Assembly (NCBI RefSeq): GCF_964204645.1
Contig: NC_134028.1
Location: 21,944,345-22,008,344 of the forward strand
Direction: 5' to 3'
Length of the DNA: 64,000 nt
From: Tubulanus polymorphus
Lineage: Eukaryota > Animalia > Nemertea
Each line of letters starts with the position of its first letter. Positions within the stretch are counted from its first letter, which is position 1. The translations under genes and the position numbers were made by a program. Below are positions 16,753 through 62,175 of the stretch, in pieces. The notes beneath the pieces were generated by a model, which saw nothing but the letters and a program-made list of their open reading frames with translations, searched no databases and was not told the origin of the DNA.

Positions 16753-16800
16753 AATACTTCTGTTCTGGAAAAGAGGATTTCATCCGCATCTAAGCAGTGA

Positions 16801-26450: not shown

Positions 26451-26497
26451 TAAACTGTCAACGTTAAAAAAAATTAAGTTTCTCGAAAAACAGGTGA

Positions 26498-29494
26498 TTA
26501 TGCTAACGACATATGAGATGCTATCCATTCACGGCTAACAGCTGACCGCAGACGACGGATTTCTGATGGCTTTTCACTCGTTAATGAACGGATGTGTTTA
26601 ATCCAGAATGGTATCATTACTAGAACACTGACCGCCACTAAACCTGCCGTCAATTCAAATGAATAGATGTAGTTCCCGGTTGCGTCATATAGCCACCCTG
26701 AAAATACAAATATCTTTAAAAACGTAAACAAATCTAGTCGATCTGTTGCTTCTTTACTTATTGAAAACTAACCAGCATATCAATGGTTGTAGTTGTGTCC
26801 AAGAAGGCCGGTCACATTACCTAATTAGAGAGCCCTTTAGATTATCGGCTAGAAAAATCCCAGATACATGTAAACCCGTCAAATCCCCGTGGACCTTCGA
26901 CCTTGGGCGCTTGAACATTTCGTTGGTTCATGGGTCGTTCGCAACTTACCGGCTAATGGAGCACCGACCATGTATCCAACTCCAGAAGGTAACAACATGT
27001 ATTGTACGGCCATATGAAGATATCTATACTCTATGATATCAGCAACAACTAGATGAGTGAGTCCAGAAAATGCTGACAATCCGATTCCAATGATAACAAC
27101 TAAAACAACAGCGGCTGTGAATCCTTCGAATACAGGAATTAGCGCCACCGTAACGCTTAGTAAAACATTAACTATTAGAAACAGAGTGAATGTATCAATA
27201 CGAGGATGCTGCGAGATTATAGATACGATAAATCGTGATACCGTATTACTAGCTCCCAAGTACGGAACTAGATATCTAGCGCTTTCTAAATCCAATTTGC
27301 AAATATCAGCGAATCCGGAAACTATGTGCACAAATATGATTGAAACGCCCACATACAAGAAAAATACAGGAAAAATAACTCCTATAAAAGTTGGTTGTCG
27401 CAGAATCTCAACGTCTAACATATTCTTACAGCCCGAGGATGTTTTTTCTGTTGTTTTATCGTTATTTTGATCACTGACCAATTGATCTTGCGCAGTATTA
27501 TCATCGCTATGCATAATGGTGCCATTTTGCTTTTCTTGTATAATAAGAATGTCTTTATTGCGTAGAGGTTTATTCCATGTGCGCAGGACTAAACTACAGG
27601 GTATTAGATTCAGAGTTAAGGCGCCGATTATTAGAACTGCTCCTCGCCAGGTATAAACTTCGATGGTCGCGTTTATGATGACCCCGAAGACGATAGTTCC
27701 CAAAGAAACTGATGACATTATGAAAGCGCTGGCTATCGATCTGTAGCGGCGGAATCTGATGAGGAAGTAAGCGATCACGGGTCCGTTATGGAACGAATGA
27801 ACCATTCCTGAAAAGAAAAGCCTTACGTAGTTTAAAGCCGAGCGCAAAACAGTACGAAAAGAAAACCTTTTTCCTGCTTCCCTCGTGAGTAATGCGGCGT
27901 TCCAAAACAACCGAAATTGTAAAAATAGTCACACTAGGACGTGAATTGAATTTCATTTATCAAGAATCAAATCAAAATATACGACCTCTCACTAGAGTAG
28001 AGATCGTCGTCAGGTGTGAGGGAATAAATAGAGACAAGGGGTATATATGAGTATGGGTAAAAATCCCACAATAAATGAATGAACCTAAGTTTATTCAAAA
28101 ATTAGAAATATTGGGTTGCTACCCTTTTTCAGTCTAAAAGCCAAATGAATACACGGTATATGTATGTATGTGAATACATATTTTCGTGAAATAAGACACT
28201 CACCCCTGCACATGCATAATGAGGAATTAAGATCTGATATATTCAGAAAGGAGACCAAGACAAGGGGCTTAAAACTTTTGGAATGAGCGACAATCAAAGC
28301 ATATTCGACTAATGCGATCAGATTAGGAATAGGCTCTAGGGAAATCAAAATAATGTCCGGTTTTAAAAGAATGAAGGACTATCCAATTGATGAATATAGA
28401 AATATAGAAAAGGTCACATTAATCAGAACAAGAGGGGTCTTGACGATACTGATCACAATTCTATTCTCAATTCCTTTATAATCTGTTAAATTCTGTTTAA
28501 TGTATAATTGGCTCTATACGTGGCAACCTTATGTCGAACTTCGCGAAATATGTTATCATTGTTTGCACAGACCCGCGGTTACTAATCAGTGCGTTGATGT
28601 CGAAACATATTAAACACATAATCGAACGATATTTACATGCATGTTAGGGAAAACAAAATTTCTCGTTTCGCGAAGCCAAAGTGGTTCTGGTTTTTGTTAC
28701 TTATTTTTGGAGCACTGCTGCACTCCGTTATAAAACAAGCATCTACAATGATACTTTTCGTGTTCGAATGGTGTGTGTGGGGGCACAGTGAGTCTTTGTA
28801 TGGAAAAATATGTCAAATACGTTCAAGTATCTAGTCGCATGGTGAAAAACGGTTATTGATTTATGAGTCGTTAACACATTTACATACCATTATCAACATA
28901 CGTAAGCAAATGACTCTAGACTCTGTTAGCTGTTGACTGGGACTTACCAGCAGGTCAGCTAATATGAAAAGGTGAAAGCTAGAATTCATAGTAAAAAGTT
29001 AAATCTATCGTATATTTACCACTGAATATCCATAGAACGTATATCAGCCATAGTTTCGTCGAAAGTGCGGAGCAGCAAATAGATAAACCGTTCAGAATAC
29101 CAGACACGACTAAACATCGCCTTAATCCAAATTTCTTAACTAACACACCAGCAACTGGGGCTAAAAAGAAGATTTTAGCGTTTCTTAGACATCAAGAAGA
29201 AAAAGAGGCCAAGTCGAAAATCGTTTTGGACCATTAGACTGTTACGAGAATTAAATCTTTTTTTTCAAACTAGAGCTTACCTAATATGAGACACATTCCG
29301 TGACCTGCGCCTATCCACGACACAACCTCGTACCCCGTATCGAAATATTCCGCCCATTCGACGATCAGAATACCGACTGAATAGAAAACTCCCCCTAAAA
29401 TCATGAGTATTCCTACACTAGCTAACACCAGACAATATCCTTCAATTCTACCCGGCTCGCGAAAATCGTCCCCGAATTCATTATCAGTCGTCAT
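26498..29494 (-). CDS. SLC16/MCT-like transporter, copy C (exons 29494-29281, 29160-29020, 27807-26950, 26697-26498; 470 aa)
   Basis: Same exon structure; GWLYDATGNY; 1413 nt in frame. Confidence 0.88.
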
Positions 29495-30917
29495 TTTCGC
29501 ATATATCCCAACTAATATATCACAGTCGCTCGGAGGTAGTGACGCATCTGACAATCAGTAGAACGAGTGAACAAACGTTTCACCTATTCAACTACTTCAC
29601 GATATTAACCCTAGCACACCCATACCGTACGTCGAGTAACGGGTGAATAAGTATGGTTTAGAGTCCGCGCACAAAATTATTAACGAAGTTAACTAAAACG
29701 CTTAATCCGAATCCGAATTAGAAAATTAACCCAAGCTAAAACATGAGCCTTTGAAGCGAGTTAAGTATGACATAAAGAGGTTTTGACTGCATGTTTTTGT
29801 TAGCCAAACACCAGTGCTGGAGACATGCCGTACGTACATAACCCTAAAAATCTGCGTTAGGATACACGTGCTGGAGACTGCCGTACAACAACAACTGAAA
29901 GTATTATTATACAAACTACGAGGGTCTGATATAAATCACGTAGTCAGCCGGTGTAGTCTAGTCGAAAATACACATAGCTGCGAGACCTCTAGATCTAACG
30001 TATCAGTTGCCCCCATTATTGTATCAAGTACAAAATTCCAGGGCCGTCCAGGCTGGTGCGGCGACGGGTTCGAGCTCACCTACTCGCAAAATTCTTAGTT
30101 CCGCTTAATTCCCTGTCCTCGAAAATTTGCTTGATACTTTCCATGGATGTACTCTAATCTTTAAAGTTAGAGGTGTTGTGTTGTATATTTTGTCTTAGAC
30201 TTGATGCGGTTGGTATCCTCTAGATACAATTCCACGAGTAAGAGTTAACTCTGAGTTAAAATCAGTAAATTTTTGATGTTTTAACTCTAGTGTCTAATGT
30301 TGCTGAACTTGCTCTGCTAATAATTGATAGAGAATGATCATTATATGTAAGTGTCAGTTCTGATTATAAAAGTTATTCAGATTCTGCCGTATTCATGGAA
30401 GATATCACAAAAGAAAAATGGCCACAAGGCCCTCAGAATACGCCTCGGAGTACCTTGATGACGGTTGTGCCGTAATGACTCATATTTAGTTCCACTTTGC
30501 CGGAGTATCGCACCTACCCACATTAAGTGGCTGGCATAAAATACGGCCCTAGACGAACTCTCCAGTTTTGTCGATCAATGTGTCATTATCATTAGAGACA
30601 TAACTGAGGAATAATTGTAATATTCTAGTCATGATTTCTATTTTCAGCGTGACGATTGTTATGAGGCCGTCATTTACATACAAGACAATCAATACATACA
30701 TAATACGGCCCAAGTCGGATATAGCATAGTATAGTGCCTTGGCGTAGAGTTAACAAGTTGTGCGGTTAATGTATCAGCGCATCAATACATTGGCGCATGA
30801 ATACATTGCTAATTGGGTATAAATGCGCGGCAAAGGAACAGTTCATTTACACGTTGACCGACGACTAGTGGCAGTTGACAACTGTTGGTTGTTTGTTGGT
30901 TGGCCCAGTGGAGAGAT

Positions 30918-32690: not shown

Positions 32691-33915
32691 ATGTGTGGCC
32701 TAAAAGGCAAAGATGTATGCAACATTTTGGGAGCAATATTCGTACGAACGATTTTCATAATATTTGTTCTTATTGCAATTTGGCGAGTGGTCGAAGGTCG
32801 CGGGACACTTTTTTGGCTGTTGGCTTTGTCACTGGTTCCATTGATAGCCGAAGGAATCTATCGACTTATCAGATATAAAGGGACCGAAACTAATAGATGG
32901 TAATGTAGACTATAATATAACGTTTCAGTGTTGACTAAGACTTTTCATTCACTTAGAGTAATTGATTCGATGATTATTTGTTTTTAGGTTCAGCGTTTGT
33001 TTCTTTTTATTTCTCCTTCCGATCGTTGCCTGTATTTGGCTACTGCAGTTGAAGTATAACGAATGTATCCTCGACGCGATTCAGAACTCCACCCGTCAAA
33101 GCTATTGTAAACTTGAAACTTTTGAGATATCGTATAAGCAAATATTCGGGGTAAGATTTTAATTCGTGTTTCGTATTTGAGCGTATTTTTCAACTCTCCC
33201 AACTACGTGTACGTAATTTCCAAGCGCTGTGTTCATAGAAGAATTACCAATTCTTATAGATGTTTCTTTTTCAACGTGATATTTGTAGATCGCGGTTCCT
33301 ATACCTCAACTCTCTCAACTCAATTGGATTCTGAGTATTCAACAGGTTACCGTTATCATGCTCGCTATCGGTCGATGTTTGTTGCCGAATGATTTCAGTA
33401 ACCGCATTCTCCTGACTCAAATGCTACTGGGGCTCATCGCTAACGGCGCTGACGTCATCGAATTCTTCCAAATCCAAAACGATATGAAACTCAAGGGCGT
33501 TCGCGATCCGATTATTTTCGTTCACTTGGCCTTGTGGTCGTTCAGTATGCTGCCCTTCTGTTTCTCACTGAGTCTGCTTGTTCGACGAGAAGAGGACCCT
33601 GCGCCTAAACCGACGACCGACGAAAGTTCGGACGAGAAGGAGCAAACACGCAAGGAAGCGTTCAAGGACGTTCTATTCGCTGAACGCTGGTCAGTGATTC
33701 TAGACGTCACATGTATGGATGCGCCTTACCTAGCAGCGAGAATATACGTCATGATTGAGTATAACATATTCACGAGTACGCTGCTATTCTTCGCTGTTAA
33801 AAACGCCTTTAAGGTGGTTGGAGGAATCGCCTTGTTCTTTATGATGATGCCGTGCTGCAAAGGGAAAGCGGCGAGCAAAACATCGAAGGTGTCACCTGAT
33901 GATATTGAGGCCTAG
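32691..33915 (+). CDS. TMEM26-like membrane protein, copy 1 (exons 32691-32899, 32988-33150, 33289-33915; 332 aa)
   Basis: WFSVCFFLFL..IWLLQL, IGRCLLP, QMLLGLIANGADVIEF, LWSFSMLPF, DAPYLAAR, FFAVKN correspond to TMEM26-family motifs. Splice sites give 999 nt in frame. Confidence 0.85.
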
Positions 33916-35269: not shown

Positions 35270-37784
35270 ATGTGCGGACACAAATGCAAAGATGTATGTA
35301 GCATTTTGGGAGCGATATTCGTACGAACGATTATCACGTTTTTCATGCTAATTACGATTTGGCGAGTCACCGTGGGCTACGGAACGGTTTACTGGCTGTT
35401 GTCTTTGTCGCTGGTTCCGTTAGTTGCCGAAGGAATCTATCGACTCATCAGATATAAAGGAGCCGAAACTAATAGATGGTAATGTAGATTATAATATAAC
35501 GTTTCGGTGTTGACTAAGACTATTCATTCACCGTTATTAACTGATTCGGTGATGATTTGTTTTTAGGTTCTGCGTTTGTTTCTCGTTATTTCTCCTCCCG
35601 GTCGTTGTCTGTATTTGGCTACTGCAGTTGAAGTATAACGAATGTATCCTCGACGCGATTCAGAACTCCACCCGTCAAAGCCTTTGCGAAGGCGATACTA
35701 TCGCGATGTCACATGAGAGAATATTCGGGGTAAGAATGACGTTACTAAGTTTTTTCATTTTTCGTATTGATAACTGATGTTCATAAAGGATAAAGCTTGG
35801 CACCCATCATTCTTAGAGAGTAGGAACCTCGTTGAAGAAAAGTGAGGGTGCCATTTTTTTCATTGTTATCTAACTGCCATGACAACATACTTATTATCGT
35901 TCTATGGTGTCAAAAATGCATAATTGTGAAATTTTTCTATTTGGATGGTGCTCTGGGAATTATTGGATACATTTTCACTCTTTTTTAAATCTCGACTGGT
36001 ATTTTTATGCTGATTCTAATTATCAAGGTTAAAGAACTCAACTAGTAACATTTATTTACCCATAATATTTTCAGTCTTATCCCCCAAAAATGCCATATGT
36101 TTGGCACTTTTTATCAAGGCCTAACTTTTTTTCTATACTTGATACTATTTATGGAAAAAACTCACAATGTATATACCACAATGATTTCATAGGACCCAGG
36201 ATTCTTCTGTTACCATTATACATTTTTGACACCATAGAAGGGTAAGAAGCCTGTTGGCATGGCAACTAGAAAACAATGATATAAAATGGCACCCTCCCTT
36301 TTCTGAAACTTCGAGAATTCTATACTTTCTAAAAATAATGGGTGCCAAGCTTTATCCTTTTCTGCACACTCGGCTCAATAAGCTCTTGGACTAGTGTTTA
36401 TGAATGGTCAATGGTTCATCGTTAATAACGTTGATGGATAATCTATCAATATGAGTATGGGAGCGATGTTTCGTTGTACATATGCCAACATGTACTAAAT
36501 TATCGGGAGAACATTCCCAAGCCCGACAGAGGTGGATACCTCAGTTGTTGATATGAAAGAAATTCTTTATCAGCTTAGTCACTCGGCGTAAGAACATTTT
36601 TGACGCCGTAGAAACCGTTACAATAATGTTTATATAGATTGATACCTAGTATGCGTTATATGAGGGTTTCTATGTGAGTCGATGTGCACTACGTCATCAA
36701 TATTGGAGTTTCAATTTTTGATAAACGTTTAAAATCATTTTGAGAGGATGTGCGCTACGTCATCGATATATCGGGCTTTGACTGGTTGCCGGTCAATCGA
36801 TTCAATTTTCGAAATCTAAAAAATCTAAAATCAAATCTAAAATAACTTAATTGATGTTAATTTCATATAATCTATTTTACATTATTTATTATCGACAATA
36901 TAAAGCAACGTAAGTGTTCTTTTTTTCAAGTTAGTTTTCTTGTTTGCCTATCAGATCTCCATTATTACACTGATGTGTGTGTATGAAACCACGGTAGATA
37001 AATTTCAAGGAAGTGAAAGGAATAAGGAATCCAGAAATTTTACAATCGAGATCATCTTATGTTTTGTTATCCATTTGACATCACAGCTTTTGTCTATATT
37101 GAATTATTGATCGACACCATTTGTGATTCTAATTCTATGTATAATTTGTAGATACGCGTAGCAGTTCCTCAACTCTCTCAACTCAATTGGATTATGAGTA
37201 TTCAGCAGGTTATGGTTATCGTGCTCGGTGTCGGTCGATGTTTTTTGCCGTGCAATTACAGTGGTCGTGTCCGTTTGGCTCAAATGTTATTGGGGCTCAT
37301 CGCTAACGGCGCTGACGTCATCGAATTTTTTCAACTGCAACAAGATTTTGAAATCTCGGACGTACGCGATCTGGCCGCTTACGTTCACTTAGCCTTGTGG
37401 ACGTTCAGTATGCTGCCATTCTGTTTCTCACTGAGTCTAGTTGATGAACAAGACGCGGATCCCGTACTTGAATCGACGACCGACGAAAGTCTGGATGAGT
37501 CGATAAAGCCAAACACGATATTGTTCAAGGATATATTGATTTATCAACGCTGGGCAGTGATTCTAGATGCCGTATGTATGGATGGACCCTTCCTAGTGAT
37601 GAGGATATGTTTCATGATTTGGTACAAAATAACCACGAGTTCGCTGCTATTTTTCTCTGTGAAAAATGCCTTGAAGTTGGTCGGAGGAGTGGCCCTGTTT
37701 TTCATGATGCTGCCGCGCTGTTCCGGCCAAGGGAAAGCTGCAAGACGAGAAAGGAAAGTGTCGCCAGAAGATATTGAAATGTAG
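35270..37784 (+). CDS. TMEM26-like membrane protein, copy 2 (exons 35270-35478, 35567-35729, 37152-37784; 334 aa)
   Basis: Tandem paralog of copy 1 with the same intron positions; MDGPFLVMR, FFSVKN; 1005 nt in frame. Confidence 0.85.
35785..36360. mobile_element. MITE with long imperfect TIRs in TMEM26-like copy 2, intron 2
   Basis: AAAGGATAAAGCTTGGCACCCAT...GAGGGTGCCATTTT...TTCTATGGTGTCAAAAATG is mirrored at 36220-36360. It is absent from the short equivalent intron of copy 1. Confidence 0.8.
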
Positions 37785-38396
37785 TAATTATACGTGATTT
37801 ACATGTGAAGCATTCCTCCTTTACTAAATGCCTCTCTGAATCTAGTATTTAGGTCTAAATGGTCGTACATACTATAAACTAAACTCAATTAATTGATGAA
37901 AACAGTCAAACAAAATATAATTAGCTGAGAAAATTAGAAACTTAAGATTCGGTCGGGTTTTAGTGGTATTCATGGATATCTACGATTTGGAAAACACTTT
38001 GCAAATTCTGATTCGAATAGATGTGAATTTAAACCCCGTCATTCATCTATGCACCATTCTGAAAAACCATGATAATCTCAACGAATATCAAATAGCTTCT
38101 AACACCTGCAAAAACAATTCGTCCACTTCACAAAACTACAATAGACAAAATGCTGGTGCTTAAAGGATTTCAGTATTTTCAGGTCGAGTCATTAAATCAG
38201 ATTTGATGTTCAAAAGCTGCTAGGATGATATGTATTCTGAGAGACGATACTTGGGTGAATAACAACAGTTCAATTGACACATGTTTAATGGGATGCTAGG
38301 TCTATAACAAACAACTGTTTTGTGTTAGGGGTTAAGTAATTTCTATACAGTATTTTGTCCGAGAGCTCCTCTATCAGAAAGGAATTAAGTCTGTCG

Positions 38397-38404
38397 TATA
38401 AAAA
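38397..38404 (+). promoter_or_regulatory. TATA box of peptide gene copy 1, followed by a non-coding exon (donor GTAAGT ~38477) and acceptor at 38821-38822
   Basis: TATAAAAA. The equivalent TATATAAA (minus strand, 58126-58133), donor and acceptor are conserved in the paralog. Confidence 0.55.
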
Positions 38405-38838
38405 CAGTTGAGAAAACCGGAAAATTTAACTCTCATCGAAAGCATTTTCGACTTGTTACAGAGTGAAAGATTCCGTAAGTAATGTTTTGCTTTGTAGTTT
38501 TTCTGTTATTTTCTTACTTGCTGCGGATGTGAAAGTGTAAGAATATTTATGTCAGCCAATGTAATAAAATGCTCCATGCACGTTCAGTATTCATTGATGA
38601 ACCGCTTGACCTTCTACCTAAATACATAAAATCGTAATTTTAGTTCTTTGCACCATTGGCAAAACTTTCTTGCAAATGGAAATGGTAATTCATCAATAGT
38701 AGTAGCTTAAACGTCCATTTAATTGGTCATCATTGACTAATTCACCCAGAGAGCTGATGTTGGAGTAAATATCATTCTCAAATATATTTCCTCAATAATA
38801 ATCTGTAATTCATTGATTACAGAAGAATCCCCGGTAAA

Positions 38839-39078
38839 ATGAAATTGTCGGCAGTTTTTGTATTGTGTGTTTTACTGGTGGTCGCCGTTACTGGTGATCA
38901 AATAGAACGAGCTCTTCGAGACGCTGAAAATGCTGGACACGACCCGCTGGAGTTGATGGAGGCCAGACGAACCGTTCAACTGATGAAACGAGGATGGTTC
39001 AAGAAAGTCTGGAGAAAAATCAAGGAACACTGTTCTATTGGTTACGACGGTGGCTTCAGAGCTCAATGCAGTGGTTAG
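38839..39078 (+). CDS. Secreted prepro-peptide, candidate antimicrobial/cytolytic peptide copy 1; predicted mature GWFKKVWRKIKEHCSIGYDGGFRAQCSG
   Basis: 19-aa signal, 32-aa acidic pro-region ending in KR, 28-aa cationic amphipathic mature peptide with C-x11-C. A conserved paralog lies at 57508-57747. Confidence 0.88.
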   Translation: MKLSAVFVLCVLLVVAVTGDQIERALRDAENAGHDPLELMEARRTVQLMKRGWFKKVWRKIKEHCSIGYDGGFRAQCSG

Positions 39079-40345
39079 AATCATTAAATGAACACATGAT
39101 ATACTTTCATGAATAGTAAATATAGTATATAGGTTTATTGAGTAAACGGTAATAATGTATTGAGTCTAATTTTTTTACCATTTCTGAGACACTGTCATTT
39201 GATTCCAAAAAGGTGGTTAGACACACGTTTTAATTATTATCCGTGTAATCGCATAGTTGCAGGGGTCATTATCTGGGGTTTTAGAAAATTTGGGACGTAG
39301 CAATAGATAATCAGGGCTCCGTAATCAACTGTGGCAATCGAGGACCAATCACCAGGCGAAATAGTGCGCGTTATGACATACTAACAGGATTTAATCTCAG
39401 AAAAACTTTGCAAAATACCTTTCCTTCTATAGACGAACGGACGACCGACGAAAAGTGAACGCAGAGAACAAATTCAATTAGTAATCCCCAACTGCAAATC
39501 TGCTAAAATAACATATTACCATGATTTTCATATTTATCATTTTGCGGTTTTCAATTTTCATTTTTAAGACGAATGCATACTACGTATGGTAAATATGTTA
39601 ATGCGATTAAGTATCAAATATTTTCTAATCACTGGATTATTGATACAATATGATTAAGATATCATTTGAAGATAAACTAAACCTTATTTACGTGACGTAA
39701 CACCGCATCTTGTCACTGCGTTTGACCACCAATACCTGGCGAAGTCGAAAAAACATATGGCTGCAAGACCACCACATGCTGAACGGAACTATTCTAGAAA
39801 AGCTCACACAAATACGCATTATATGTTATTAGAGTTTTATAGATAAAGTACGTACGAAAAAAACGAATAATTCCGATAAAACTTGATGGAAATAAATCAC
39901 TTAAGATTGGGTTAGTCTTTCTATTCTCAGATTTTATCACCCGACTGTTTGTATTTACAAGCTCATTGTTGCTTCAAACCAGCCCTTCGTCATAATGCCT
40001 ACTCAGGGTATCACCTATATCGAATCATTATTTATTGATGTTATCAATGGTTTGTAGGAAAATGAAATCCATTTATATCAATATCAAGATCACCCAGAAA
40101 TGGTTGGAGCACTCAACAATGGATGGAACATCCGGCAATTGATGGCACGGCGTCCCGGTGTCCAATTTAGAACGTAAAATCCGTAACCCAGCTGAATATT
40201 TCATCTTATCCAACCTTGTTATCAGACATTAATCAACATCTACACGCGAGTTTTATATTATCATGGATTCAAAGATTAGGACGATTTGGTTTTGTATATT
40301 TCACGATACTCATGAGTTACGAATATTCGTTTTGTTTTCGAATCA

Positions 40346-43300
40346 TTAACTGATGACATAATTTACGTAAACTACAGCGGTTATTGTAAGTAATGTAACG
40401 TATGATTTGGTCTGTGCGCCTTTGCTCGTTGTACAAATGTTGTATCTTTTATCCGACTCATGACAGTGGTTTTTATTCGGTCCGATACAAGCGGCGTAGC
40501 CCATCGCGTGCGCTATATAATTCTGTTCAACGACCCCGTTAAACAGGAATGACATCGGTCCTCGCGCGTAGATCGACACGTCTTCGCCACCGTGCGTCTC
40601 CTCTTTCAGGTTGATACCGGATTCCTGCCTATATTTCAAAGCCCCTGCCGAGAGATAGAGAAAGTATGTGAACGTTATCACAAAAATAACGGGTTTTATG
40701 CTGCTGCTGCGGCAAGTGATGAACCGCCAGGATCGCTAGTAGTTACTTAGTCGTCTCCGTGTGGCTCCGTCGGTAGAGTGCTGCGCTACTGTGCTTGCGT
40801 GTTCGAATCTCTAGCGTTCAATGAAGCCTCTTCGTTCGACTGTGGCAATCGAGGATTCCGCTTTTGCCACAGAAATGTGAAATATTTGACCCCCACAAAT
40901 TTCCTCACAAATCAACAATGCAACCCTGATTCTGCAAAGGTTTTACTGATACCAAGACCCATCACAGCAACCCCTTGCCCACAAACATCCAACCGCCAGA
41001 TTTTCGAACCCGCTCCCCTGTCAGGATGGAATTAGGACCAATCCCTTGTGAAAATGTAGTGTGCAGTTTGGGGTTTTAATTGACAAACCTGTTTGTTTTG
41101 GCGTGAGTAGTTGACGGGAACCGTTAGTTTTACTGATGGCGTAACCGGGTCCGTTAGTGTACATGAGAGTCGTGAACGGTAGATTGGACGTGTCGTTTTC
41201 GTAATCATTCAAACCTGAAATTATCGATAAGTATAAATAAGATTTCATTATACAAATCAATTAAATGATAACAATAAATTCATTAATTCGTGATTCACCA
41301 AACAAACAGGCAATATTGTGAATAAAGCTAAAAAGCAAAGATCACGGGTTTTTTGCCTGGCCGATATGAACGCCCGCACTATGAAGCCTGCGAAGTTTCT
41401 TCGACATCGGTCTTTATAAGTTAGTTCATGTACGGTTTTCTTTCAGGAAGCGTCACATACGGGTTAAGACATGCACTAGATATGTGGACCGAAATGAGCG
41501 TCAAGAAACAAAGTCATGATGCAACAACTTCGAAGTGTATCGAGGATAACGAAGACACAATGCTTCCACTAATACAGCCCATCGGTGGCGGTTGTATGAA
41601 CTAAAAAGGACACGGGCGGTCAAGATTAATGTGCGCCGACATAAACTCAGGAAATACTATACGATTACATAGATAGCATAGAGTTCGGTGTTAATATATG
41701 AAAATGGTTGGTATCAAAAATGCATAAAGAGATTCCTTTAAGAGATGTTTTTTTTGCTGGTATGAATTATACATTATGCATTATAGATAGAGTCTTGGAT
41801 GCTGCACCATAGATTGCGGAGACTTGGCATACTCAACGACAAAAGATAATCAGGGAATTTACAACATTTTAGGGGCTGTCATGTATACATCACTTATTGT
41901 ATCTAACCACCAATATGGCGTCGTCGAAAAAGCTACAATCATGACTATACGAACTGTATATGTATGTCAATATCGAGGCATTTTTGATGGTATATACTTC
42001 AAAGGATCAGACACTTTTATATGCACAAAATCTATTTCGGTGAAGGTCAAACATCGAACTATAGAATACAATACTCTTTGATATCTCTATATCGATATAT
42101 ATGCACTATCGAATATACGACGAACTGTGCAAAAAAATTCGTGGAATCCTGCGCGTTGTCTTTCACTAGCCAACTAGCCACTTAGCTACTAACTAAGAAT
42201 AGGATTTTTTTTTATTCGGTAGACGTCCTGAATTAAATGTAATCTTATGAATCATGTGTCTTAATTTTCAAGCCGACTTGTCGGAAAAGAAGAGGATTCT
42301 TTTGATAACGATATCTCGCAAAGTTTTTTTCATGCCGTACCCGACGTTAGAAACGCGAAAACCTTACCGAATAGAGGACTTCCTCTAGTGGGATATCCCC
42401 CAAGATCAAATACATGCGAATGATCGGCAGTTACGACGGTTAATGTATCTCTAACCGAAGTGAGTTGTTCTACCTCTCCGATCGCTGCTTCAAACGCCCA
42501 GCTGTCTATGATTGCCAGTTTTGCCCATGACTCGTGATGACCGTGATCGATTCTGCCGCCTATAAAATCAACATAAAGTCAATCAGAGATCAAGCATATT
42601 ATAACAATAAACTTAAAAGTTTATCAATAAACTTAAACTTAAACTTATAACTCCGAGTAATCAATGATTACTCCAAGCATATACAGGACTAGCACGATAC
42701 CCGTCTTAGACTGGTTGATAGGTAAAACATAAACACATCAGCGGTACAGTACGAAAAATAGCTCATGAACTTTAGGCTACAGTTCACCAATTTCCTCACA
42801 GAGGGCGACATCCTCCAAAATGGCTGATGATGTTTTGTATTTCATTTTGCTATGATTTTTTTAAACTTAATCTAATACCTCCTTGTATATATTCTAATTT
42901 CTAACAATGATAAATACCTTCCCGTGGATATTCAGGACCAAAGAATCGACACATCAACATGAGACTCCCCGCCCAATAACCTGGATGAGTTCTCCAAAAA
43001 CCTCCAACCAATTTGTATAGTTATCCAGGAAGAAAGACACTAAATATTTGGATGGATACATGAAAGCTGTGGGTACTGGAGTGTGTAATGGGTAGTGTAG
43101 TGTGATCTGTGTGCATTTGTGGCCAGCACACAGATCACATTGTTCAATGGGGTTTGGTCCAGGACTCGCGAGATTTTCAACAACACGGAAGTAACGTGTA
43201 ATAAATGATGACTTGAATTGCATGACTACCTACCACCCCTCATTATTGTTGGAAAACTAAACGTTCCGCACTGACTAAAAATTAGTAATAACATTTTTGA

Positions 43301-46300
43301 AATGGCCAGAATTTTAACTTAGGTTCCATCTCATTTTTATTTTACAATAACGATTGGTATAATTTTTTTCTATCGGCTAGATAACAATCACCCGTGCAGT
43401 GTTTTGTCGATTGTGTCGTTTTACCTTCTACGAGTAAGAAGAATCCGTTTTTATTCTTCTTCAGAATCTCGATGGCTTTTTTGGTCATTTCAGCAATAGA
43501 CGGTTCACCCGCTGTATCATTGAGCCTTTCACCTTCGTACTGCATATGACTGTATTCGAATAACCCTTGAATATCAAGTAAATGAAAAGTACATGTAAGT
43601 CCAAAAACCGTTATGGATGTGAAATCTTGGTTTCTACGAAAAATGAAGCAATCTTTTTTTCATTTACCTAAAACACGGTCAACATTTTTCGGGTTAATTT
43701 GATCGAATCCATTCTTATCGTGGACGTACGTGTGTCTTAGGTTGGCTTTCTTCTGGTTGGCTTTCCATTCCTGCATAACACCATTACAATAACGACTCGT
43801 ACAGTATTAAACAGTAATATATACGGGCAGAAAAATCGTGGGTCTTTCGTCGAATGCAACATTATTCACAAATATCAAATAATATTCGATTTACTAGGAA
43901 ACCCTTAGCATATGAACTACGCGGTTTTTGGTTCTGGCCACCCTGGATAAGCCCCCCCCCCCCTGGACAACGCACATGTGCTTGCTTCCGCGTAACTTCG
44001 CTCTATTGGTGGTGAAATACGAAAAGCAACTTATCCGATAGATATGGTGGCTGATAAGGGCCATAGCGTAAAATTCCTGGTATGTAAATGAGGGCGCCAG
44101 AACGCCAGAACGCCAAAACGAAAAAAAAACGTCCAATTTTCTCTAGAAGTTCGTTTTGGCGCGCCAAAACAAAGAAAATTCCGTTTTGGCACCCCCGCCA
44201 AAACGAACTTTCATTTTGGCGCCCCCGCCAAAACAACGAAAAACGTCCAATTTTCTCTGAAAGTTCGTTTTGGCGCACCAAAACGGAGAAAATTCCGTTT
44301 TGGCGACCCCGCCAAAACGAACTTTCATTTTGGCGCCCCCACCAAAACGAACTTTCGTTTTGGCGGCCACGCCAAAACAATGAAAAACGTCGAAATTTCT
44401 CTAAAAGTTCGTTTTGGCGCGCCAAAACGAAGAAAATTCCGTTTTGGCGCCCCCGCCAAAACAACGAAAAACGTCCAATTTTCTCTGAAAGTTCGTTTTG
44501 GCGCGCCAAAACAAAGAAAAGTTCGTTTTGGCGCGGTTATTTCCGTTTTGGCGCCCCCGCCAAAACAAGCATTCAACGACAATAAAATTATTTTTCAATT
44601 TGGCGCGTTGATCTTGTGTGTAATTTGCATAAATTTGCATATATGAAAATATTTTACGTATATATAGAATTATTTTACGTGGTTTAAAGTTCGTTTTGGC
44701 GGGGGCGCCAAAACAGAATATTCGTTGTTTTGGCGCGCCAAAACGAACTTTTAGAGAAATTTCGACGTTTTTCGTTGTTTTGCGGGGGCGCCAAAATGAA
44801 AGTTTGTTTTGGCGGGGGCGCCAAAACGGAATATTCGTTGTTTTGGTGCGCCAAAACGAACTTTTAGAGAAATTTCGACGTTTTTCGTTGTTTTGGCGGG
44901 GGCGCCAAAATGAAAGTTCGTTTTGGCGTGGGCGTCAAAACGGAATTTTCTCCGTTTTGGTGCGCCAAAACGAACTTTTAGAGAAATTTCGACGTTTTTC
45001 GTTGTTTTGGTGGGGGCGCCAAAACGGAATTTTCTTTGTTTTGGCGCGCCAAAACGAACTTTTGGACGAGAAAATTGGACGTTTTTTTTCGTTTTGGCGT
45101 TCTGGCATTTACATACCAGGAATTTTACGCTATGGCCCGTATCAGCCACCATAGATAGACCCTAGACTTTCGTAAATCCCTTCAATTCAGTAACATAGTT
45201 CAATCATAGCAAAAATATCCTTTTTGAGCGCCTTTATGCAAATATATGCAAATTTAACTCAGGGGCAAAGCGCCATATTGAAATTACCGCGCCAAAAGGG
45301 CAAAAAATCCGTGTTTAAAATTTTAAATCAACTTCGTACTTCCATTCTGGTGTCCTCATTTGCATATCAGGAATTTTACTTCATAGCCCGAATCAGTCAC
45401 CCTAAAGAACCCTCCGCGCTGTGCCACTCATGCATAACGGTGGCAATCATGCATAACAGAAGGGAATTCATACTAAAATTTTAGCATATTTTATTTCATT
45501 GCTTGTCTAAAAGTTGAAAAACAATAACTAATTGTTCCGAGATTTACGAGATCAGTTAACATGACCTATCTCGGAGTTCGAAGAATAACCTACTTAATAC
45601 GACTATATCATAGTATGTCTTTCTATTTTTTTCCGTAACGCAAACGCGCTATAGCTTTTTGCCTTTGTGCGTTTATTATTTGTTGAGATATAATATATAT
45701 GCGCAAACATACGAGCTTCGAATATAATTCAACCAACGTCGAAAACGAATCAGATTAAAAAAAAAAAAGACTGTCAACACTTTGTATTTATTCGTGATAT
45801 ATTTGCGTCATCGCGAAAGGTTAAAATACGTATATCAAAACAGAGGTAAAAAAAAAAAACTGTGATCACGTCGTGTGAATTACTGAATATAGTTCTCTGA
45901 GTTTCAGTTTCAGGCTTGTCCGTCAAAAATTCGGTACCACCTGAGGATGTCCTATTTTTCTTTGGTTCAAATCTTTGGAAATTGCAACAGGGTTTTATTT
46001 TTCAAAGTTTTCCTAGGGAGGGCCTCGACACCCCCCTTATGGCTTCTCGCCACTCGTGGATAGTATAATTATCGCGCTTTTCACCGGGTGCTTCCCCTCG
46101 GTCAGTATAAGCTCTGAATCCGCTTCTGATTGGTGCTCGTGAAATATTTGTATATCATTCTAATTGATGCGGGCCAGTTTTTGTTGATGTCACAGAACTA
46201 TTTCCTACCGTTACAAGGTTTCGACCATCTGTTCGTTTTCCTTTCTTGTTTGGATACTCCGGATCTGTGTCACTTTTCGTGTAAAAGTGGCAACGACCTC

Positions 46301-48522
46301 CTCCGAATATCACCTACAACAAAAATATACATACGGTAAAAGATGAAATAACAAAACATGTTCGACGGCTCAATAAATATGGTTCGTTTTTTCCACTATT
46401 TCATCACTGGCGAATCGAATCTAATCTAAAACAATATTGCATCACATTCTGTTTTCGCGTCAAGACCTGTGTTTATTTGCACCGAAAATCATCGCCGTCC
46501 GAACTCCTAAATTCGTTTTGATATTACATACGATAAAGCTCGGTCAAAATCACGTTCAGGCGTTTTGTCAAGAGCACTTCAATAAGGCTCTAAGAACCCA
46601 GTTTTACCAGGCTATCGTTTCGAATGATCGGCGGTTCTATACTGATCTTCCTCGCTGAGCAATGGTCGCGTGTTACTACAACGCTATCGATGAACAACAC
46701 CACATCGTTACTGAATCTCCACGAATGGACATGTACTTACGTCGAGATCTTTCCCATCTCCGTCTATGAGTTGAGCGGCGATATCTTTACATTTTCCAAC
46801 ATCGGGCGCTGGTATTTTTGTGTTATCCTCCCAGTTCCGATCGACTGACTGTGCGTACAGCGCTCCCGGTGTCGCGTGAGTAACCTTAGTAGTCGTTACC
46901 ATTCCGACACTTTTCCCTAGATCGTATGAAACATTAGTTTAAGCGGCTTGAATAAAGCAATCCGTTGACATTTTTTTACAGTTTGAAAAGACCCACAACG
47001 ATAAAACAATCATACATCTTAGACTACTGAAACTGATGAGCTTAAACTCAACATGTCTATCGATGTTTTCAAAGACATCATCAGAAATCCCCGAAATTGT
47101 TGTGGCGTCAATGAAGCATTTCATTTCTTCAAACATCATGTGGGATTTCACTTTCGTGTGAACCCATTGATTCTCTCCAGTAACTCAGAACTAGATGGGA
47201 TGATACTGTTGCATTGACTTAGCATCAGCGCTCAGTGACAAGCGGGTTCGAGTCCTGCTTGTTGCGTATAATGCACGGGCCGTGGACCCCAGTGGGGTTA
47301 GTCTTGGGTAACCAAGATCCGAACCACGTGAAGTAAGATATATAGAATTATATCTCAAAAGCCACATACGTATCGCTTCAAACGTAGCAACTTTTATCGA
47401 CTATTAGTATTTGAATGAAGTCTTGACAAATAGTATATATAATGGTGGTCCACAATAGCACAATTCCGTATCTCAACATCTCATATAGATTGTATGGAAT
47501 GAGACATTAAGAATCATGAACAAACTTTACTTGCGACGATATGGGTCCAAAGTGCAACGATCAATGTTTGTATTGTATTTGTAGTTTGGTGCCTACCTGC
47601 ATCCTTCGCCCATTTTAGGATCGAATGGAATTTGTTATTCGGGTCGAGCGTGGAGCATTTACCGCGTTCAACAGTGTCGTCGACGCCTAGAACTCCGTAC
47701 TTGGTCTTAAAACCGCACAGCATAGCAGTGGCGGTACCAGCCGAATCAGCCACTTGATGGTCTGTATTATACGTCTAATGCAGAAATGGAAAATATATTC
47801 TATTCATTCATATTGTTCAACTTGGATTGACTTTCAACTTGAAAATCAATGCGCCGAATAACAGAAATACCAGCGTTAAACGATTACAAATCGAAAGCAT
47901 GATTTTGTTCAGACCTTGGATAACGCGACATTCGGGAATTTATCGTAGACCAGCTGGGTTTCTTCGCCTAGTTGACCTTGCGATTGACCCTTGTATATTC
48001 GAGTAGCTACGACAGTCGGCAGTCCCATTCCGTCGCCGATGAAAATAATGACGTTTTTGGCGACATTGATATTTGGCATATGATCCAATCTGTCTTTAAG
48101 CGTATCTTGGCCAATTTTGTTCCAGAAATCGGCATCTATACATAATTCAGAAAAATACATAATACATTTTTCATCTAACCTTAACTATACTGTAAGGACG
48201 TTTAGAATTCTATTTCGACAAAATGAACATAATGGCCTTAAATTATAAACATTTCAGTCGACTCTATCAAATAGATAATCAATCAGACGTCCTTAACAAA
48301 AATATATCATATATTTTCTTAAACAGCGCACTCTAACAAACTATAATCAGCGCGCTATACATCAGTACGAATTTCAATTTTAGCTGAGCAATTTTAGTAT
48401 CTCATTCCTCTGTTTTCTTAAAATGACTTACTCTCTGTTTTACGCGGTACGGCGCAGTCCAAGCCGGTCAAGTAAAAAAGCGGGACGCACGCTACAACAA
48501 CTACTACCGCTCGGTAAGACAT
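40346..48522 (-). CDS. ALPL: Alkaline phosphatase (tissue-nonspecific-like, probably GPI-anchored); 10 coding exons: 48522-48432, 48135-47915, 47774-47597, 46916-46741, 46313-46209, 43770-43668, 43565-43425, 42559-42368, 41214-41089, 40644-40346
   Basis: Signal peptide; [22 protein letters not shown] (catalytic Ser), [50 protein letters not shown]; hydrophobic C-tail. The symbol denotes the family, not proven orthology. Confidence 0.95.
44043..45153. mobile_element. 1.1-kb foldback element with internally repetitive inverted arms, in an ALP intron
   Basis: Ends TATGGTGGCTGATA.GGGCCATAGCGTAAAATTCCTGGTATGTAAATG and its reverse complement. Arms are built of TTTTGGCG..GCCAAAA units. GATAGA directly flanks both sides (44037-44042, 45154-45159). 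Confidence 0.88.
45220..45401. repeat. Degenerate short relative of the foldback element
   Basis: TTTATGCAAAT..TGCAAAT matches the foldback centre in reverse; CATTTGCATATCAGGAATTTTAC..CATAGCCCG.ATCAG.CACC matches its right terminus. Confidence 0.6.
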
Positions 48523-49697: not shown

Positions 49698-50690
49698 TCA
49701 GAATTTTCGTCCGAACAAACCTAATGTCAAACACCAAACTAAAGTTTGGAGAAATCCCCTCCGGATGAACGCGTAGATGAATAGATTAACGGATACATTG
49801 AACATCTCGAACATGAGAAACGCAAAGAAAAAATAGAAATAGTCAATCGAACCGTATTGTTTATTAGCGATAACTTCATACGTCCCTTCGAGAAAACTGA
49901 CGAAACATAAACTCACTACGACCAGCGCTATGTTGACTGTGTTTCGGTTTGTTTTCCCTTTAGATAAGTCCTTTCGCTTTAGGTTCGCCGCTAGGATCGT
50001 AAACACGACGTGAATATTCAACAGCATCGCCAACGAGAACGGCAACGTTTTCGTCAGGATCGAATCGACAGTGAAGAAAAAACCCCACAGAAACGACTGC
50101 CACACCGGGCCGTAGTCGGCGATCGTGAATTTCAGAACGACTCGATCGCGATCGCCGCAAGAAGCCGTTTCGATCATCTTAACGACGAAGTACTGCGGCA
50201 GCGTATGAACCCCGGCGAATAGAAACAGCGAGCACGTTACGAGTTTAGCTCTGTGAACGGTGCAATACCGTGGCGCCTTCAACGGGAATATAACCGCTAT
50301 GTAGCGATCTACGGTAACGGCTAAAGTGACCGATTGACTGGTGTATCTAGAGACCATTACGACGTAGTCTATCCCGGCGTATTTACGGGCGATTTCGCGC
50401 GACCAATCGCCGTCGACGTAACCGTACAGTTGTAGGTAGTAGTTCAGTTTCGACAAGGTGCTCGATAAGGACGCGATTCCGTCAGCGATGGCCAGAGCTC
50501 GCAAGTAGAATATACCGCTTCCGCGATGTCGCATCGCCGTAAACACGACGAAACTGAACAGATTACCAACAACTCCTATCACGCACATAGTCCCGTAGAT
50601 ACCGAACAAAACGGCCGTCAGCAAACTTCTGTCGTATTCGCTACAAATCCAATCCGTTCTCTCTGAATCATTCGCCAGTGAGAGATCCAT
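49698..50690 (-). CDS. Intronless rhodopsin-family GPCR (peptide-receptor-like clade)
   Basis: GVVGN (TM1), YLRALAIAD (TM2), TVDRYIAVIFPLKA (DRY), HTLPQYF (TM4), LPF (TM5), NVSVNLFIY (TM7). Start MDLSLANDS carries an N-glycosylation sequon. Confidence 0.9.
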   Translation of the reverse strand: MDLSLANDSERTDWICSEYDRSLLTAVLFGIYGTMCVIGVVGNLFSFVVFTAMRHRGSGIFYLRALAIADGIASLSSTLSKLNYYLQLYGYVDGDWSREIARKYAGIDYVVMVSRYTSQSVTLAVTVDRYIAVIFPLKAPRYCTVHRAKLVTCSLFLFAGVHTLPQYFVVKMIETASCGDRDRVVLKFTIADYGPVWQSFLWGFFFTVDSILTKTLPFSLAMLLNIHVVFTILAANLKRKDLSKGKTNRNTVNIALVVVSLCFVSFLEGTYEVIANKQYGSIDYFYFFFAFLMFEMFNVSVNLFIYAFIRRGFLQTLVWCLTLGLFGRKF

Positions 50691-57507: not shown

Positions 57508-57747
57508 CTAACCACTGCATTTAGCTTTGAAGCCACGGTCGTAACCAAAAGAACAGTGTTTCTTCATTTTTTTCCAGATTTTCTTGAACCATCCTCGTTT
57601 CATCAGTTCAACGGTTCGTTTGGCCTCCATCAACTCCAGCGGGTCGTGTCCAGCATTTTCAGCGTCTCGAAGAGCTCGTTCTACTTGATCACCAGCAACG
57701 GCGACCACCAGTAAAACACACAACACAAAAACAGCCGACAATTTCAT
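57508..57747 (-). CDS. Secreted prepro-peptide, candidate antimicrobial/cytolytic peptide copy 2; predicted mature GWFKKIWKKMKKHCSFGYDRGFKAKCSG
   Basis: 79 aa, same architecture as 38839-39078 (67/79 identical by my count); the upstream region is also duplicated. Confidence 0.88.
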   Translation of the reverse strand: MKLSAVFVLCVLLVVAVAGDQVERALRDAENAGHDPLELMEAKRTVELMKRGWFKKIWKKMKKHCSFGYDRGFKAKCSG

Positions 57748-59727
57748 TTTACCGGGGATTCTTCTGTAATCAATGAATTACAGGTCATTAATAAGGAAGT
57801 ATATTTGAGGATGATATTTACACCAACATAAGCTCACTGAGTGCATTATAGTCATGGACATTTAAGCTACTTATAGGAATTGTATTCGGCAGAATGTTTT
57901 TACCAATGACGCTCAAAAAATTAGATATTTTCTTGGTAGAAGTTGATGAATCATTGAGATTGAATAATAGTATTATATATGTTTTATCTGAATGTTACAC
58001 TTTACTATTACTACTGTATAATCATACAGTAAAACAAAGAACATATCTCTACTTACCAAATTTTTCACTCAGTAACAAATCGAAATGCTTTCGATGAGAG
58101 ATAAATGTTTCGATTTTCATCTCTGTTTATATACAACAGCCTTAATTCCTTTCTGATAGAGGAGCTTTCGGACAAAATACCGCATAGAAGTAACAAAATC
58201 CCGAACTCAAAACAGTTGTTTGTTATAGACTTAGGATCCCATTAAACATGTGTCAATTAAACTGTTGCTATTCATCAAAGTATTGTCCCTCCGAATACAA
58301 GTCATCCTAGCAGCTGTTGAACATCAAATCTGATTTAATTACCCGAACTTGAATACTGAAATCCTTTAAGCGCTTAAGCGCTAGCGTTTCGTCTTTTGTA
58401 GTTTTGCGAAGTGAACAAATCGATTTTGCAGGTGTTAGAAGCGCATCGATATTCGTTGAGATTATCACGGTTTTTCAGAACGGCCTATAGATAACTGACG
58501 GGGCTTAGATTCACATTCATCTGAATTAGAATTTACAAAGTTTGTATGATTTCCCAAATGATCGTAGGTTTCTTAAAGTTTCTTCGATTTTCATTTAATT
58601 TCTTATCAGGTCTTTTTTTATACCATTTTCTATTCTTCTGTTTATATCATTCATTCTTTTGACTTCGACATTTGTAGACATGTCTCGCAAACGTTAACAT
58701 ATCTCATTTTTCATTAATGGTGATTTACAGTGGCAACTGCCGGATAAGGATCCAGTTAACATAAATAGCTCTTTCTGATAACGCGGAAGATCTGTGTATA
58801 TTTCATCAACATCACTTCTCTGATGTAAGTAGTGTTTGTTGTTGCCGACTATAAATCCCCGTGTACGGAACGGGATGAGAGTTTGTAGACCAACCGCTAA
58901 ATGTTATGTTACATATTACCGCAGTAATTGATTATATTTATTCAGCACACACGTCATAGCGAAACGGCGAGCAAATATTGTTCCTGTTACGATTCCATAA
59001 ACATGTTGAAATCATGGTTTATGACGACTGGTTAGATTATTTTGACGAAGTGACGTCTGTGGAAAGTCCCAACGGCGCTTCCGGGAAATTCTAAACAAAT
59101 TGAAATTGCTGCTGTTTGCATGTGACTTCCTATTAATCATTTCAGAACTAATTGACGACGCTGTGTAGGTTTTTTTAATCAGAATTGATGTTCATTAACT
59201 TGTTGGGAAATCAATATAATGCTAGAATTTAAAAATCCTCGGGAAAATTTCAGTTGTCTTGAAGAAATAAAAAATGAAGGATGTATTTTTCTATGTTGTT
59301 CGTACCATTGATGACACTGAACCGTATAAACCAATACTTTAATTGAAAGATGGTGACAATCTGCCGGGACGGGATCTTACACAAAAGTCGCGTGAATTAT
59401 AGAAATTTTCTTTTGACGCAATGAGAAAATTTCTTCCTTCGGGTTCATCGCAAAACGGTAGTGTAACCGAAACCATCGAGATGTAATCTTTCACAATCTG
59501 AAAATCCTCATTCGTATGATTTTAGTTAAAGATAAGGGATTGGTTTGCAAAGGGTGTAAGTTCAACATTTAGTTATTCACGCGACTGAGCATGAGTGACA
59601 AAATAGTTTCGGGATTATATTTATATCTGTCAGTCCACCTATTAGAATTAACCGTTTACTCAATTAACTTACAATATGCATACCACTTTTTTCCTTAAAT
59701 ATATGTACGTGTTGATTCTTTGACCTA

Positions 59728-59786
59728 AACCACTGCATAACGCTCTGAAGCCTCGGTTGTAACAAATAGAACAGTGTTTCTTGATT
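59728..59786 (-). pseudogene. Remnant of a third peptide-gene copy (IKKHCSICYNRGFRALCSG)
   Basis: Aligns with the 3' end of both peptide genes. Signal, pro-region and GWFKK are absent. The matching distal upstream block is at 61697-62175. Confidence 0.8.
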
Positions 59787-61696: not shown

Positions 61697-62175
61697 GGTT
61701 AGAAGCTATTTGATATTCGTTGAGATTATCATAGTTTTTCAGAATAGTGTAGGTGAATGACGGGGCATAAATTCACATTGACCTAAATCAGAATCTGCAA
61801 AGTGTATTCTTTTCCAAGCTGTAGATAACTATGAATCTCACTAAAACAGAATCTTAAGTTCTTTTAAAAGTTTCTCTAACATTTTCATTTAATTTCTTGT
61901 CAGGTAATTTTTATGCCATTTCAGCCTTTCTTTTGTTTATACCATTCATCCTTTTGACTTCGACCTTTGTAGATATATCTGGCAAACATTAACATATCTC
62001 ATCTCATTATGGTGATTTACATTGGCAACTGCCGGATAAGGATGCAGTTAATGCAAATTATCCGTTATGATAACGCGGAATATCTTGTGTATATTTCATC
62101 AACATCACTTCTCGGATGTAAGTAGTGTTTGTTGCCGACCATAAATCCCAGTGTACGAAACGGGATGAGAGTTAC
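61697..62175 (-). repeat. Third copy of the peptide-gene distal upstream region
   Basis: Direct match to 58430-58885 and reverse-complement match to ~37940-38105. Confidence 0.8.

What the first reader, a model, noticed from the sequence alone, without database searches (positions are those of the whole stretch)
38839..39078. Candidate new antimicrobial/cytolytic peptide family: cationic GWFKK helix fused to a single-disulfide loop
Seen: signal (19 aa), acidic pro-piece (32 aa), dibasic KR site, and a 28-aa mature peptide with an amphipathic Trp/Lys N-half, a C-x11-C loop (CSIGYDGGFRAQC) and a terminal Gly. Known: this prepro layout and GW(F/L)KK start occur in cecropin-type and sea-urchin centrocin AMPs; helix plus C-terminal disulfide loop occurs in frog Rana-box peptides and polychaete nicomicin; terminal Gly is an amidation donor. 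Inference: I do not recognise this pro-region or the 13-residue loop from any named family, so it may be an undescribed defence peptide or toxin.
Basis: partly seen in the sequence, partly recalled or inferred. Interest (0 to 1): 0.9.

Follow-up and report, generated by a model that had tools for sequence, protein, structure and literature searches.

The report
Duplicated helix-plus-hairpin defence peptide genes
An invertebrate animal carries a small duplicated gene family, at least one copy of it spliced, whose product is predicted to be a secreted precursor that would release a positively charged helix joined to a disulfide-closed hairpin, likely a new membrane-damaging antimicrobial peptide; no activity has been tested.

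Summary
The ORF is real and not alone: the window holds a second intact copy B (57508-57747, minus strand, 85% identical) and a broken third. A and B share a TATA box and a GT-AG intron in the 5' leader. A contig of a run that is probably RNA joins B's exons exactly; copy A's own mature region was not seen there. Changes cluster in the mature part (8 of 28 residues against 4 of 51, p=0.02) and both cysteines are kept. The N-terminal helix is not new: 9 of 11 residues match hagfish HFIAP-3, and cysteine-free KR-GW precursors occur in a nematode and two gastropods. No relative of the pro-piece or loop was found. AlphaFold predicts helix plus C65-C77 beta-hairpin. It fails membership of cathelicidins, centrocins, cecropins, Rana-box and BRICHOS peptides. 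Verdict: likely an undescribed family of a familiar kind, cationic membrane-active host-defence prepropeptides. Function, cleavage, amidation and the host's phylum are inferred.

The parts
38839..39078 (+). Copy A coding sequence, 79-aa prepropeptide (P0001), all in one exon
38839..38895 (+). Predicted signal peptide, residues 1-19
   Evidence: mean hydrophobicity 0.68, one Lys near the start; cut site inferred from the small-residue rule, no predictor run
38896..38991 (+). Pro-piece, residues 20-51, mildly acidic, internal RR at 43-44, ending in KR
38992..39075 (+). Predicted mature peptide, 28 aa, net +4; amphipathic helix then hairpin; last Gly a possible amide donor
39031..39069 (+). C65-x11-C77 loop, predicted two-strand hairpin with the Cys pair facing each other at its base
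   Evidence: AlphaFold2 single sequence, mean pLDDT 78.6, pTM 0.32; same elements at lower confidence
38475..38822 (+). GT-AG intron in the 5' leader of copy A (348 nt)
   Evidence: donor and acceptor conserved with B while the middle diverges; splicing seen only for B
37996..38474 (+). Upstream block conserved between A and B, with TATAAAA at 38397 and the likely short first exon
57508..57747 (-). Copy B coding sequence (P0002), 85% identical, mature part net +8
57764..58056 (-). GT-AG leader intron of copy B (293 nt), absent from a contig of run X5
58057..58541 (-). Upstream block of copy B with TATATAA at 58133
59729..59785 (-). Fragment C: last 19 codons of a third copy, both Cys kept, 5' part and stop absent
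61698..62173 (-). Fragment D: duplicate of B's far upstream flank, probably the other end of the broken third copy
   Evidence: 77% identity over 487 nt

Best explanation
This is a small duplicated gene family of an invertebrate animal that encodes a predicted secreted prepropeptide whose mature part likely acts as a membrane-damaging antimicrobial (host-defence) peptide. Shown: intact ORFs A and B, shared promoter block and leader intron, an exactly spliced contig of B, change concentrated in the mature part with both Cys kept. Inferred mechanism: the signal peptide takes the precursor into the secretory path; the acidic pro-piece would mask the cationic part; a prohormone convertase would cut after KR; C65-C77 would close a short beta-hairpin; the last Gly would become a C-terminal amide. 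The Lys/Arg face of the GWFKK helix would bind anionic microbial membranes, Trp/Phe/Val/Ile would insert, and the membrane would leak. The hairpin probably adds stability or target binding. Copies differ mainly in charge (+4 in A, +8 in B), which would tune the spectrum.
For: Anatomy and amphipathy. Two intact copies plus a fragment, both Cys in all three. Splice: X5 contig 18 joins letters matching B's first-exon end (25 of 26) to the acceptor, and X5 contigs 18 and 21 carry the same numbers of differences from A as B does (3 and 11). X5 is probably RNA: its 2,864-nt contig at depth 318 ends at 39209, 20 nt past an ATTAAA, and fits the neighbouring alkaline phosphatase mRNA (2,749 nt without 5' UTR). 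Mature part 8 of 28 residues changed against 4 of 51 (Fisher p=0.021), all 8 nucleotide changes non-synonymous, 4 of them adding a positive charge or removing a negative one. First 11 residues match HFIAP-3 at 9 (tables in PMC11762488, PMC10968335); an HFIAP-1-like peptide starting GWFKK had MIC 0.5 uM on E. coli and damaged membranes (PMC8904554); centrocin heavy chain starts GWFKK and is microbicidal (PMC3561256). ESM Atlas: 4 of the 5 rows shown are frog skin peptide precursors, scores 0.75-0.77, a lead only.
Against: No activity, peptide or tissue data. Copy A's mature region was not seen in X5: all depth at 39025 and 39049 carried B's letters. B's contigs in X5 (depth 21-24) are only about three times the unspliced background (about 8), and contigs do not measure level. 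The spliced contig runs on upstream of the TATA box, so either it merges background DNA with mRNA or the start lies further up. Zero synonymous of 8 changes is not significant on its own (p=0.20), and only two full sequences were compared. Mussel MgCRP-I peptides share the pattern of conserved prepro and variable cationic mature part yet showed no antimicrobial or toxic activity (abstract of PMC4558851). The hydrophobic helix is short (about 12 residues), too short to span a bilayer alone.
Confidence: 0.7

Rival explanations
1. A cytolytic or deterrent peptide of skin mucus or venom aimed at animal cells (predators or prey) rather than microbes; same processing, same membrane mechanism, other target.
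For: Conserved prepro with variable mature part also fits toxins; Pfam's Conotoxin model gives weak matches over the signal and pro region (14.7 and 15.7 bits, cut-off 25.1); the best named hit of a neighbouring bHLH gene is a ribbon worm, a group with mucus toxins (PMC12846013); nicomicin and the HFIAP-1-like peptide are themselves cytotoxic or haemolytic.
Against: All close look-alikes of the helix with tested function were described as antibacterial; high charge and low mean hydrophobicity (-0.09 and -0.20) favour anionic membranes (general knowledge); the bHLH tree does not place the host with ribbon worms.
Confidence: 0.14
2. A secreted signalling or binding peptide (neuropeptide, pheromone, or protease-binding hairpin) in which the disulfide loop is the working part and the helix only carries it.
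For: KR cleavage, amidation Gly and a Cys ring are standard in neuropeptides (general knowledge); the loop keeps a pattern C-S-x-x-Y-[DN]-x-G-F-[RK]-A-x-C in all three copies.
Against: Neuropeptides usually conserve the mature part more than the pro-piece; here it is the reverse. No Pfam hormone or inhibitor family at E<=10. The helix is strongly cationic and amphipathic.
Confidence: 0.1
3. The family is real but copy A, the one named in the finding, is silent or decaying, B and copies elsewhere being the working genes.
For: X5 shows only B's letters in the mature region; A has the lowest charge, with Glu63 and Gly71 where the other contigs of X1 and X2 have Lys and Arg codons; a third copy is already broken.
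Against: A keeps ORF, TATA box, donor, acceptor, KR, both Cys and the Gly; one run of one sample, as contigs, cannot show absence.
Confidence: 0.25
4. A chance ORF or assembly artefact.
For: Neither protein is in the 15-billion collection, although neighbouring genes of this contig are, so the annotation did not call them.
Against: Two copies 18 kb apart on opposite strands, frame-preserving divergence, exact splice, presence in contigs of 4 of 4 runs laid from 2 studies, 1 hit in 100 shuffled windows. Short ORFs are often missed by gene callers (general knowledge).
Confidence: 0.01

Closest known systems
Hagfish cathelicidin peptides HFIAP-1 and HFIAP-3
   Same: First 11 mature residues match HFIAP-3 at 9 positions, the other two being V/A and I/V.
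   Different: No cathelin domain (32-aa pro-piece without Cys); HFIAPs are linear, this one ends in a two-Cys loop.
Unannotated KR-GW[FL]xK multi-peptide precursors of Panagrolaimus sp., Aplysia californica and Bulinus truncatus (P0049-P0051)
   Same: Signal-like stretch, acidic spacer, KR, then GW-F/L-x-K cationic helix; the only 3 hits at E<=0.001 among 1.84 billion proteins.
   Different: Two peptides per precursor, 0 Cys in all 6 peptides; for the two compared pairwise (P0049, P0051) the match is limited to the KR site, the helix and a few residues before it; function untested, common descent not shown.
Sea-urchin centrocins
   Same: Mature chain starts GWFKK; cationic amphipathic helix; signal plus acidic pro-piece.
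   Different: Heterodimer of heavy and light chain joined by one interchain disulfide; no KR before the GW in the precursor; here both Cys lie in one chain and the ORF ends two residues after the second.
Polychaete nicomicin and frog Rana-box peptides
   Same: N-terminal amphipathic helix plus C-terminal single-disulfide loop; frog precursors also use signal, acidic spacer and KR (the frog layout in part recalled).
   Different: Loops of 6-7 residues against 13; nicomicin has a 239-aa BRICHOS precursor; no match to the frog prepro family PF03032.
Amphioxus BjAMP1
   Same: Signal, anionic region, dibasic site, cationic mature peptide with two Cys spaced C-x11-C (sequence in PMC4683396).
   Different: No GW helix before the loop; only the two Cys and one Gln match copy A across the 13 positions (counted by eye); reported as helical.

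Membership tests
Cathelicidins (HFIAP) | Cathelin pro-domain with four conserved Cys (PMC4683396) | tested here: not met
   Pro-piece is 32 aa with no Cys; no cathelicidin model among Pfam rows at E<=10
Cathelicidins (HFIAP) | Cationic amphipathic helical mature N-terminus | tested here: met
   9 of 11 with HFIAP-3; moment 0.86
Centrocins | Heavy and light chain from one precursor, linked by one interchain disulfide | tested here: not met
   Both Cys within the 28-aa tail, nothing encoded after it
Cecropins | Linear helical peptide without disulfide (PMC6780910) | tested here: not met
   Two Cys kept in 3 of 3 copies; no cecropin model
Frog skin Rana-box peptides | Conserved FSAP signal/pro region (PF03032) | tested here: not met
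   Not among Pfam rows at E<=10; Atlas likeness only 0.75-0.77
Frog skin Rana-box peptides | 6- or 7-residue C-terminal disulfide loop (PMC6265681) | tested here: not met
   Loop is 13 residues
BRICHOS-related polychaete AMPs (nicomicin, arenicin) | BRICHOS domain in a precursor of about 200-240 aa | tested here: not met
   79-aa precursor; leader exon carries in-frame stops, so no longer frame upstream; no BRICHOS row
Nicomicin-type architecture | N-terminal helix plus C-terminal disulfide-closed part | tested here: inconclusive
   Predicted only; fold searches gave no match at E<=0.001 or Z>=5
BjAMP1 | Signal, anionic pro, dibasic site, C-x11-C mature peptide | tested here: met
BjAMP1 | Sequence homology of the mature peptide | tested here: not met
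   3 of 13 loop positions, two being the Cys; no GW helix in BjAMP1 (compared by eye)
Conotoxin precursors | Pfam PF02950 above cut-off | tested here: not met
   14.7 and 15.7 bits against 25.1
Cationic host-defence peptides (functional class) | Antimicrobial or membrane-permeabilising activity | not testable with these tools
   needs synthetic peptide
Cationic host-defence peptides (functional class) | Expression in barrier or immune tissue, or induction by microbes | not testable with these tools
   runs carry no library or tissue record

The most novel reading that the evidence does not exclude
A new two-module scaffold: the widespread KR-GWFKK membrane helix has been fused to a 13-residue disulfide beta-hairpin that does a separate job (binding a cell-wall or protein target, or shielding from proteases), in a diversifying multigene family of a lophotrochozoan group from which no antimicrobial peptide has been characterised.
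Probability: 0.3. Interest if true: 0.65.

Novelty: new variant of a known kind. Interest (0 to 1): 0.5.

Why it matters
It is a gene family that the annotation of this genome missed, with a 28-residue natural peptide that is cheap to make and test. Natural copies differ in charge on a fixed scaffold, which allows a direct test of what the hairpin adds to a helix already known to kill bacteria. The hits also point to an apparently unstudied set of KR-GW precursors in gastropods and a nematode. It would extend the catalogue of invertebrate innate immunity rather than change how such peptides are understood.

Tried and rejected
No whole genome is held for this window, so family size was not counted. 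Word-based protein search: 2 candidates, none at E<=10. Exact look-up: 0 of 2 in the collection. PDB sequences: one designed helical protein at E 4.1 for the precursor, 0 for the mature part. Foldseek: 0 at E<=0.001 for both models; VIA-align: 3 of 48,161 chains at Z 2.0-2.1, none at 5; these blanks do not show a new fold. Atlas on the mature part: no usable hit. Metagenome scan: 162 pattern matches, 1 passed, L001, an 869-aa bacterial protein sharing only a signal-like start and a short motif; rejected as chance. No RNA holder was listed by record. X4 (other organism label, other study) gave one 174-nt contig at depth 3.3 with 8 differences from A where B has 10; too thin to call an ortholog. 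Host placement: bHLH best named hit Lineus longissimus, but the quick tree of 46 rows left the window's row unresolved; the adhesion GPCR gave 1 unnamed hit. Literature: 'GWFKK' in 8 papers, 6 of them checked (centrocin in 3, HFIAP in 3); six motifs of A and B in 0 papers; ribbon-worm searches gave no such peptide, and the Cephalothrix mucus candidates have four or more Cys, but that paper's supplement could not be read and might hold relatives. The helminth AMP screen does not print GWF or GWL in its main text; its supplements were not searched. Rfam: 0 matches in the window. Earlier findings of this scan: none in 3 look-ups. APD3, DRAMP, TSA, SignalP and ProP were not available.

Full report
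Observation. The stretch 38839-39078 (+) translates to the 79 residues described. Residues 1-19 are hydrophobic, 20-51 form a pro-piece that is only mildly acidic (net -1 with its final KR) and 52-79 a tail of net +4 whose first half is amphipathic (best 11-residue moment 0.86, reached by 0.3% of shuffles). The loop itself is neutral in this copy. A simple filter for such precursors finds 2 ORFs in the window and 1 in 100 shuffled windows (criteria chosen after the fact).

Setting. The window is animal DNA of low GC with GPCRs, MFS transporters, Tmem26 copies, a bHLH gene and an alkaline phosphatase. It lies on a 27.4-Mb annotated contig, since two neighbouring proteins are in the collection, while neither peptide precursor is. 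The bHLH's best named hit is the ribbon worm Lineus longissimus and most other named hits are molluscs, but a quick tree of 46 rows does not resolve its place. I conclude only: an invertebrate, probably lophotrochozoan.

A gene family. The ORF list shows a second intact copy, B, at 57508-57747 (-), 85% identical. A fragment C at 59729-59785 keeps the last 19 codons with both Cys, and a duplicate of B's upstream flank lies at 61698-62173; between them is decayed sequence with reverse-transcriptase-like pieces (one of 6 pieces hits RVT_1 below cut-off), so a third copy was probably broken by a retroelement. A and B align over 1.1 kb at 79%. They share a TATA box about 70 nt before a GTAAGT donor and an acceptor 16 nt before the ATG, the intron middle diverging. 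The leader has in-frame stops, so the precursor is not part of a longer protein. Contigs of runs X1, X2 and X5 hold a further type with a 3-nt leader deletion; X1 and X2 also show a 3' flank not found in the window and an Asn codon at position 70 that neither A nor B has, so at least one more copy lies elsewhere. In X1 the summed depth over the coding part is 376-489 against 44-47 in the flanks, but the tool warns that this is no copy number.

Transcription. Five runs hold the stretch, none on record as RNA; 4 were laid. In X5 one contig passes from the upstream block to 38822 through 25 letters that, with the next G, match the end of B's first exon at 25 of 26 positions and A's at 20 of 26: B's intron is cut out exactly at GT and AG. 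That contig and the next carry 3 and 11 differences from A, the numbers B has over the same ranges. The joint is absent from X1, X2 and X4. X5 also has a 2,864-nt contig at depth 318 that ends at 39209, just past an ATTAAA, and fits the alkaline phosphatase mRNA (2,749 nt before its 5' UTR), so X5 is probably RNA. Against: A's mature region is not seen in X5; B's depth is about three times the unspliced background; the spliced contig continues upstream of the TATA box; one sample only.

Divergence. A and B differ at 14 nucleotides: 6 in 51 prepro codons (2 synonymous) and 8 in 28 mature codons (0 synonymous). Amino-acid change is enriched in the mature part (p=0.021); the lack of synonymous change alone is not significant (p=0.20). 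Net charge goes from +4 to +8. This is the pattern described for defence peptides and toxins (abstract of PMC4558851), the reverse of what neuropeptides usually show (general knowledge). The same abstract is a warning: those mussel peptides were inactive in all assays.

Structure. AlphaFold2 on KR plus the mature peptide gives a helix to His64, then strands at 65-69 and 73-77, placing the two Cys opposite each other (pLDDT 78.6, pTM 0.32, single sequence); the whole precursor gives the same order at lower confidence. Fold searches found nothing clear, which for 30 residues says little.

Relatives. A profile of A and B against 1.84 billion proteins gave 3 hits, E 1e-4 to 4e-4: unannotated precursors of Panagrolaimus, Aplysia and Bulinus, each with two KR-GW helices and no Cys; in the two compared pairwise the match centres on the KR and the helix. 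In print, the helix matches hagfish HFIAP-3 at 9 of 11 residues (tables of PMC11762488 and PMC10968335) and shares GWFKK with centrocin (passages of PMC3561256, PMC12250603, PMC8473576). An HFIAP-1-like peptide damaged membranes and had MIC 0.5 uM (passages of PMC8904554). Helix plus disulfide loop is known from nicomicin and Rana-box peptides with 6-7-residue loops (abstract and section 2.2 of PMC6265681), and C-x11-C spacing from amphioxus BjAMP1 (passages of PMC4683396). The Atlas ranks frog skin precursors first, at lead level only. No call found a relative of the pro-piece or the loop; since small ORFs escape annotation, as these did, that blank is weak. Also seen: abstract of PMC10745061, passages of reviews PMC10608444, PMC12466427 and PMC6780910 (none mentions nemerteans), passages and Results of PMC12846013 (supplement unseen) and passages of PMC10414684.

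How it likely works. Secretion, masking by the pro-piece, cutting after KR, disulfide closure and amidation are inferred from sequence. Binding to anionic membranes through the helix and leakage are inferred from the tested look-alikes. The role of the hairpin is open. I put antimicrobial at 0.7, cytolysin of mucus or venom at 0.14 and signalling or binding peptide at 0.1; separately, copy A may be silent (0.25).

Verdict. A real, unannotated, duplicated gene family that works like known cationic helical host-defence peptides but belongs to none of the named families tested. New variant of a known kind; interest 0.5.

Noticed in passing
window 39209-48522 (-): Ten-exon alkaline phosphatase gene whose 3' UTR ends about 130 nt from copy A's stop, tail to tail; a contig of matching length lies at depth 318 in X5.
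   Followed up: partly
P0049, P0050, P0051: Unannotated two-peptide KR-GW cationic helix precursors in Panagrolaimus, Aplysia and Bulinus; the Aplysia one sits at the end of a model named as a glycosyltransferase and looks like a fused gene model. Candidate antimicrobial peptides in their own right.
   Followed up: partly
window 59800-61450 (+): Decayed non-LTR retroelement-like sequence between fragments C and D.
   Followed up: partly
window 16767-29500 (-): Three tandem MFS (monocarboxylate-transporter-like) genes, about 88% identical over exons.
   Followed up: no
window 16402-16752, 32691-33915, 35270-37784 (+): Two tandem Tmem26 copies and a further Tmem26-like piece upstream.
   Followed up: no
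window 44043-45153: Array of 30/84/114-nt units arranged as a large inverted repeat inside an alkaline phosphatase intron, probably a foldback element.
   Followed up: no
window 39421-39463: Short very high-copy element (summed depth up to 9,634 in X1) inside the alkaline phosphatase 3' UTR.
   Followed up: no
window 6190-8670 (+), 52360-54555 (-), 12012-13004 (-), 49698-50690 (-): Two single-exon secretin-class and two single-exon rhodopsin-class GPCRs; the 731-aa one has only 1 relative at E<=1e-30 among 7,996 candidates scored.
   Followed up: no
window 56455-56952 and 879-1081: Inverted repeats of MITE-like size.
   Followed up: no
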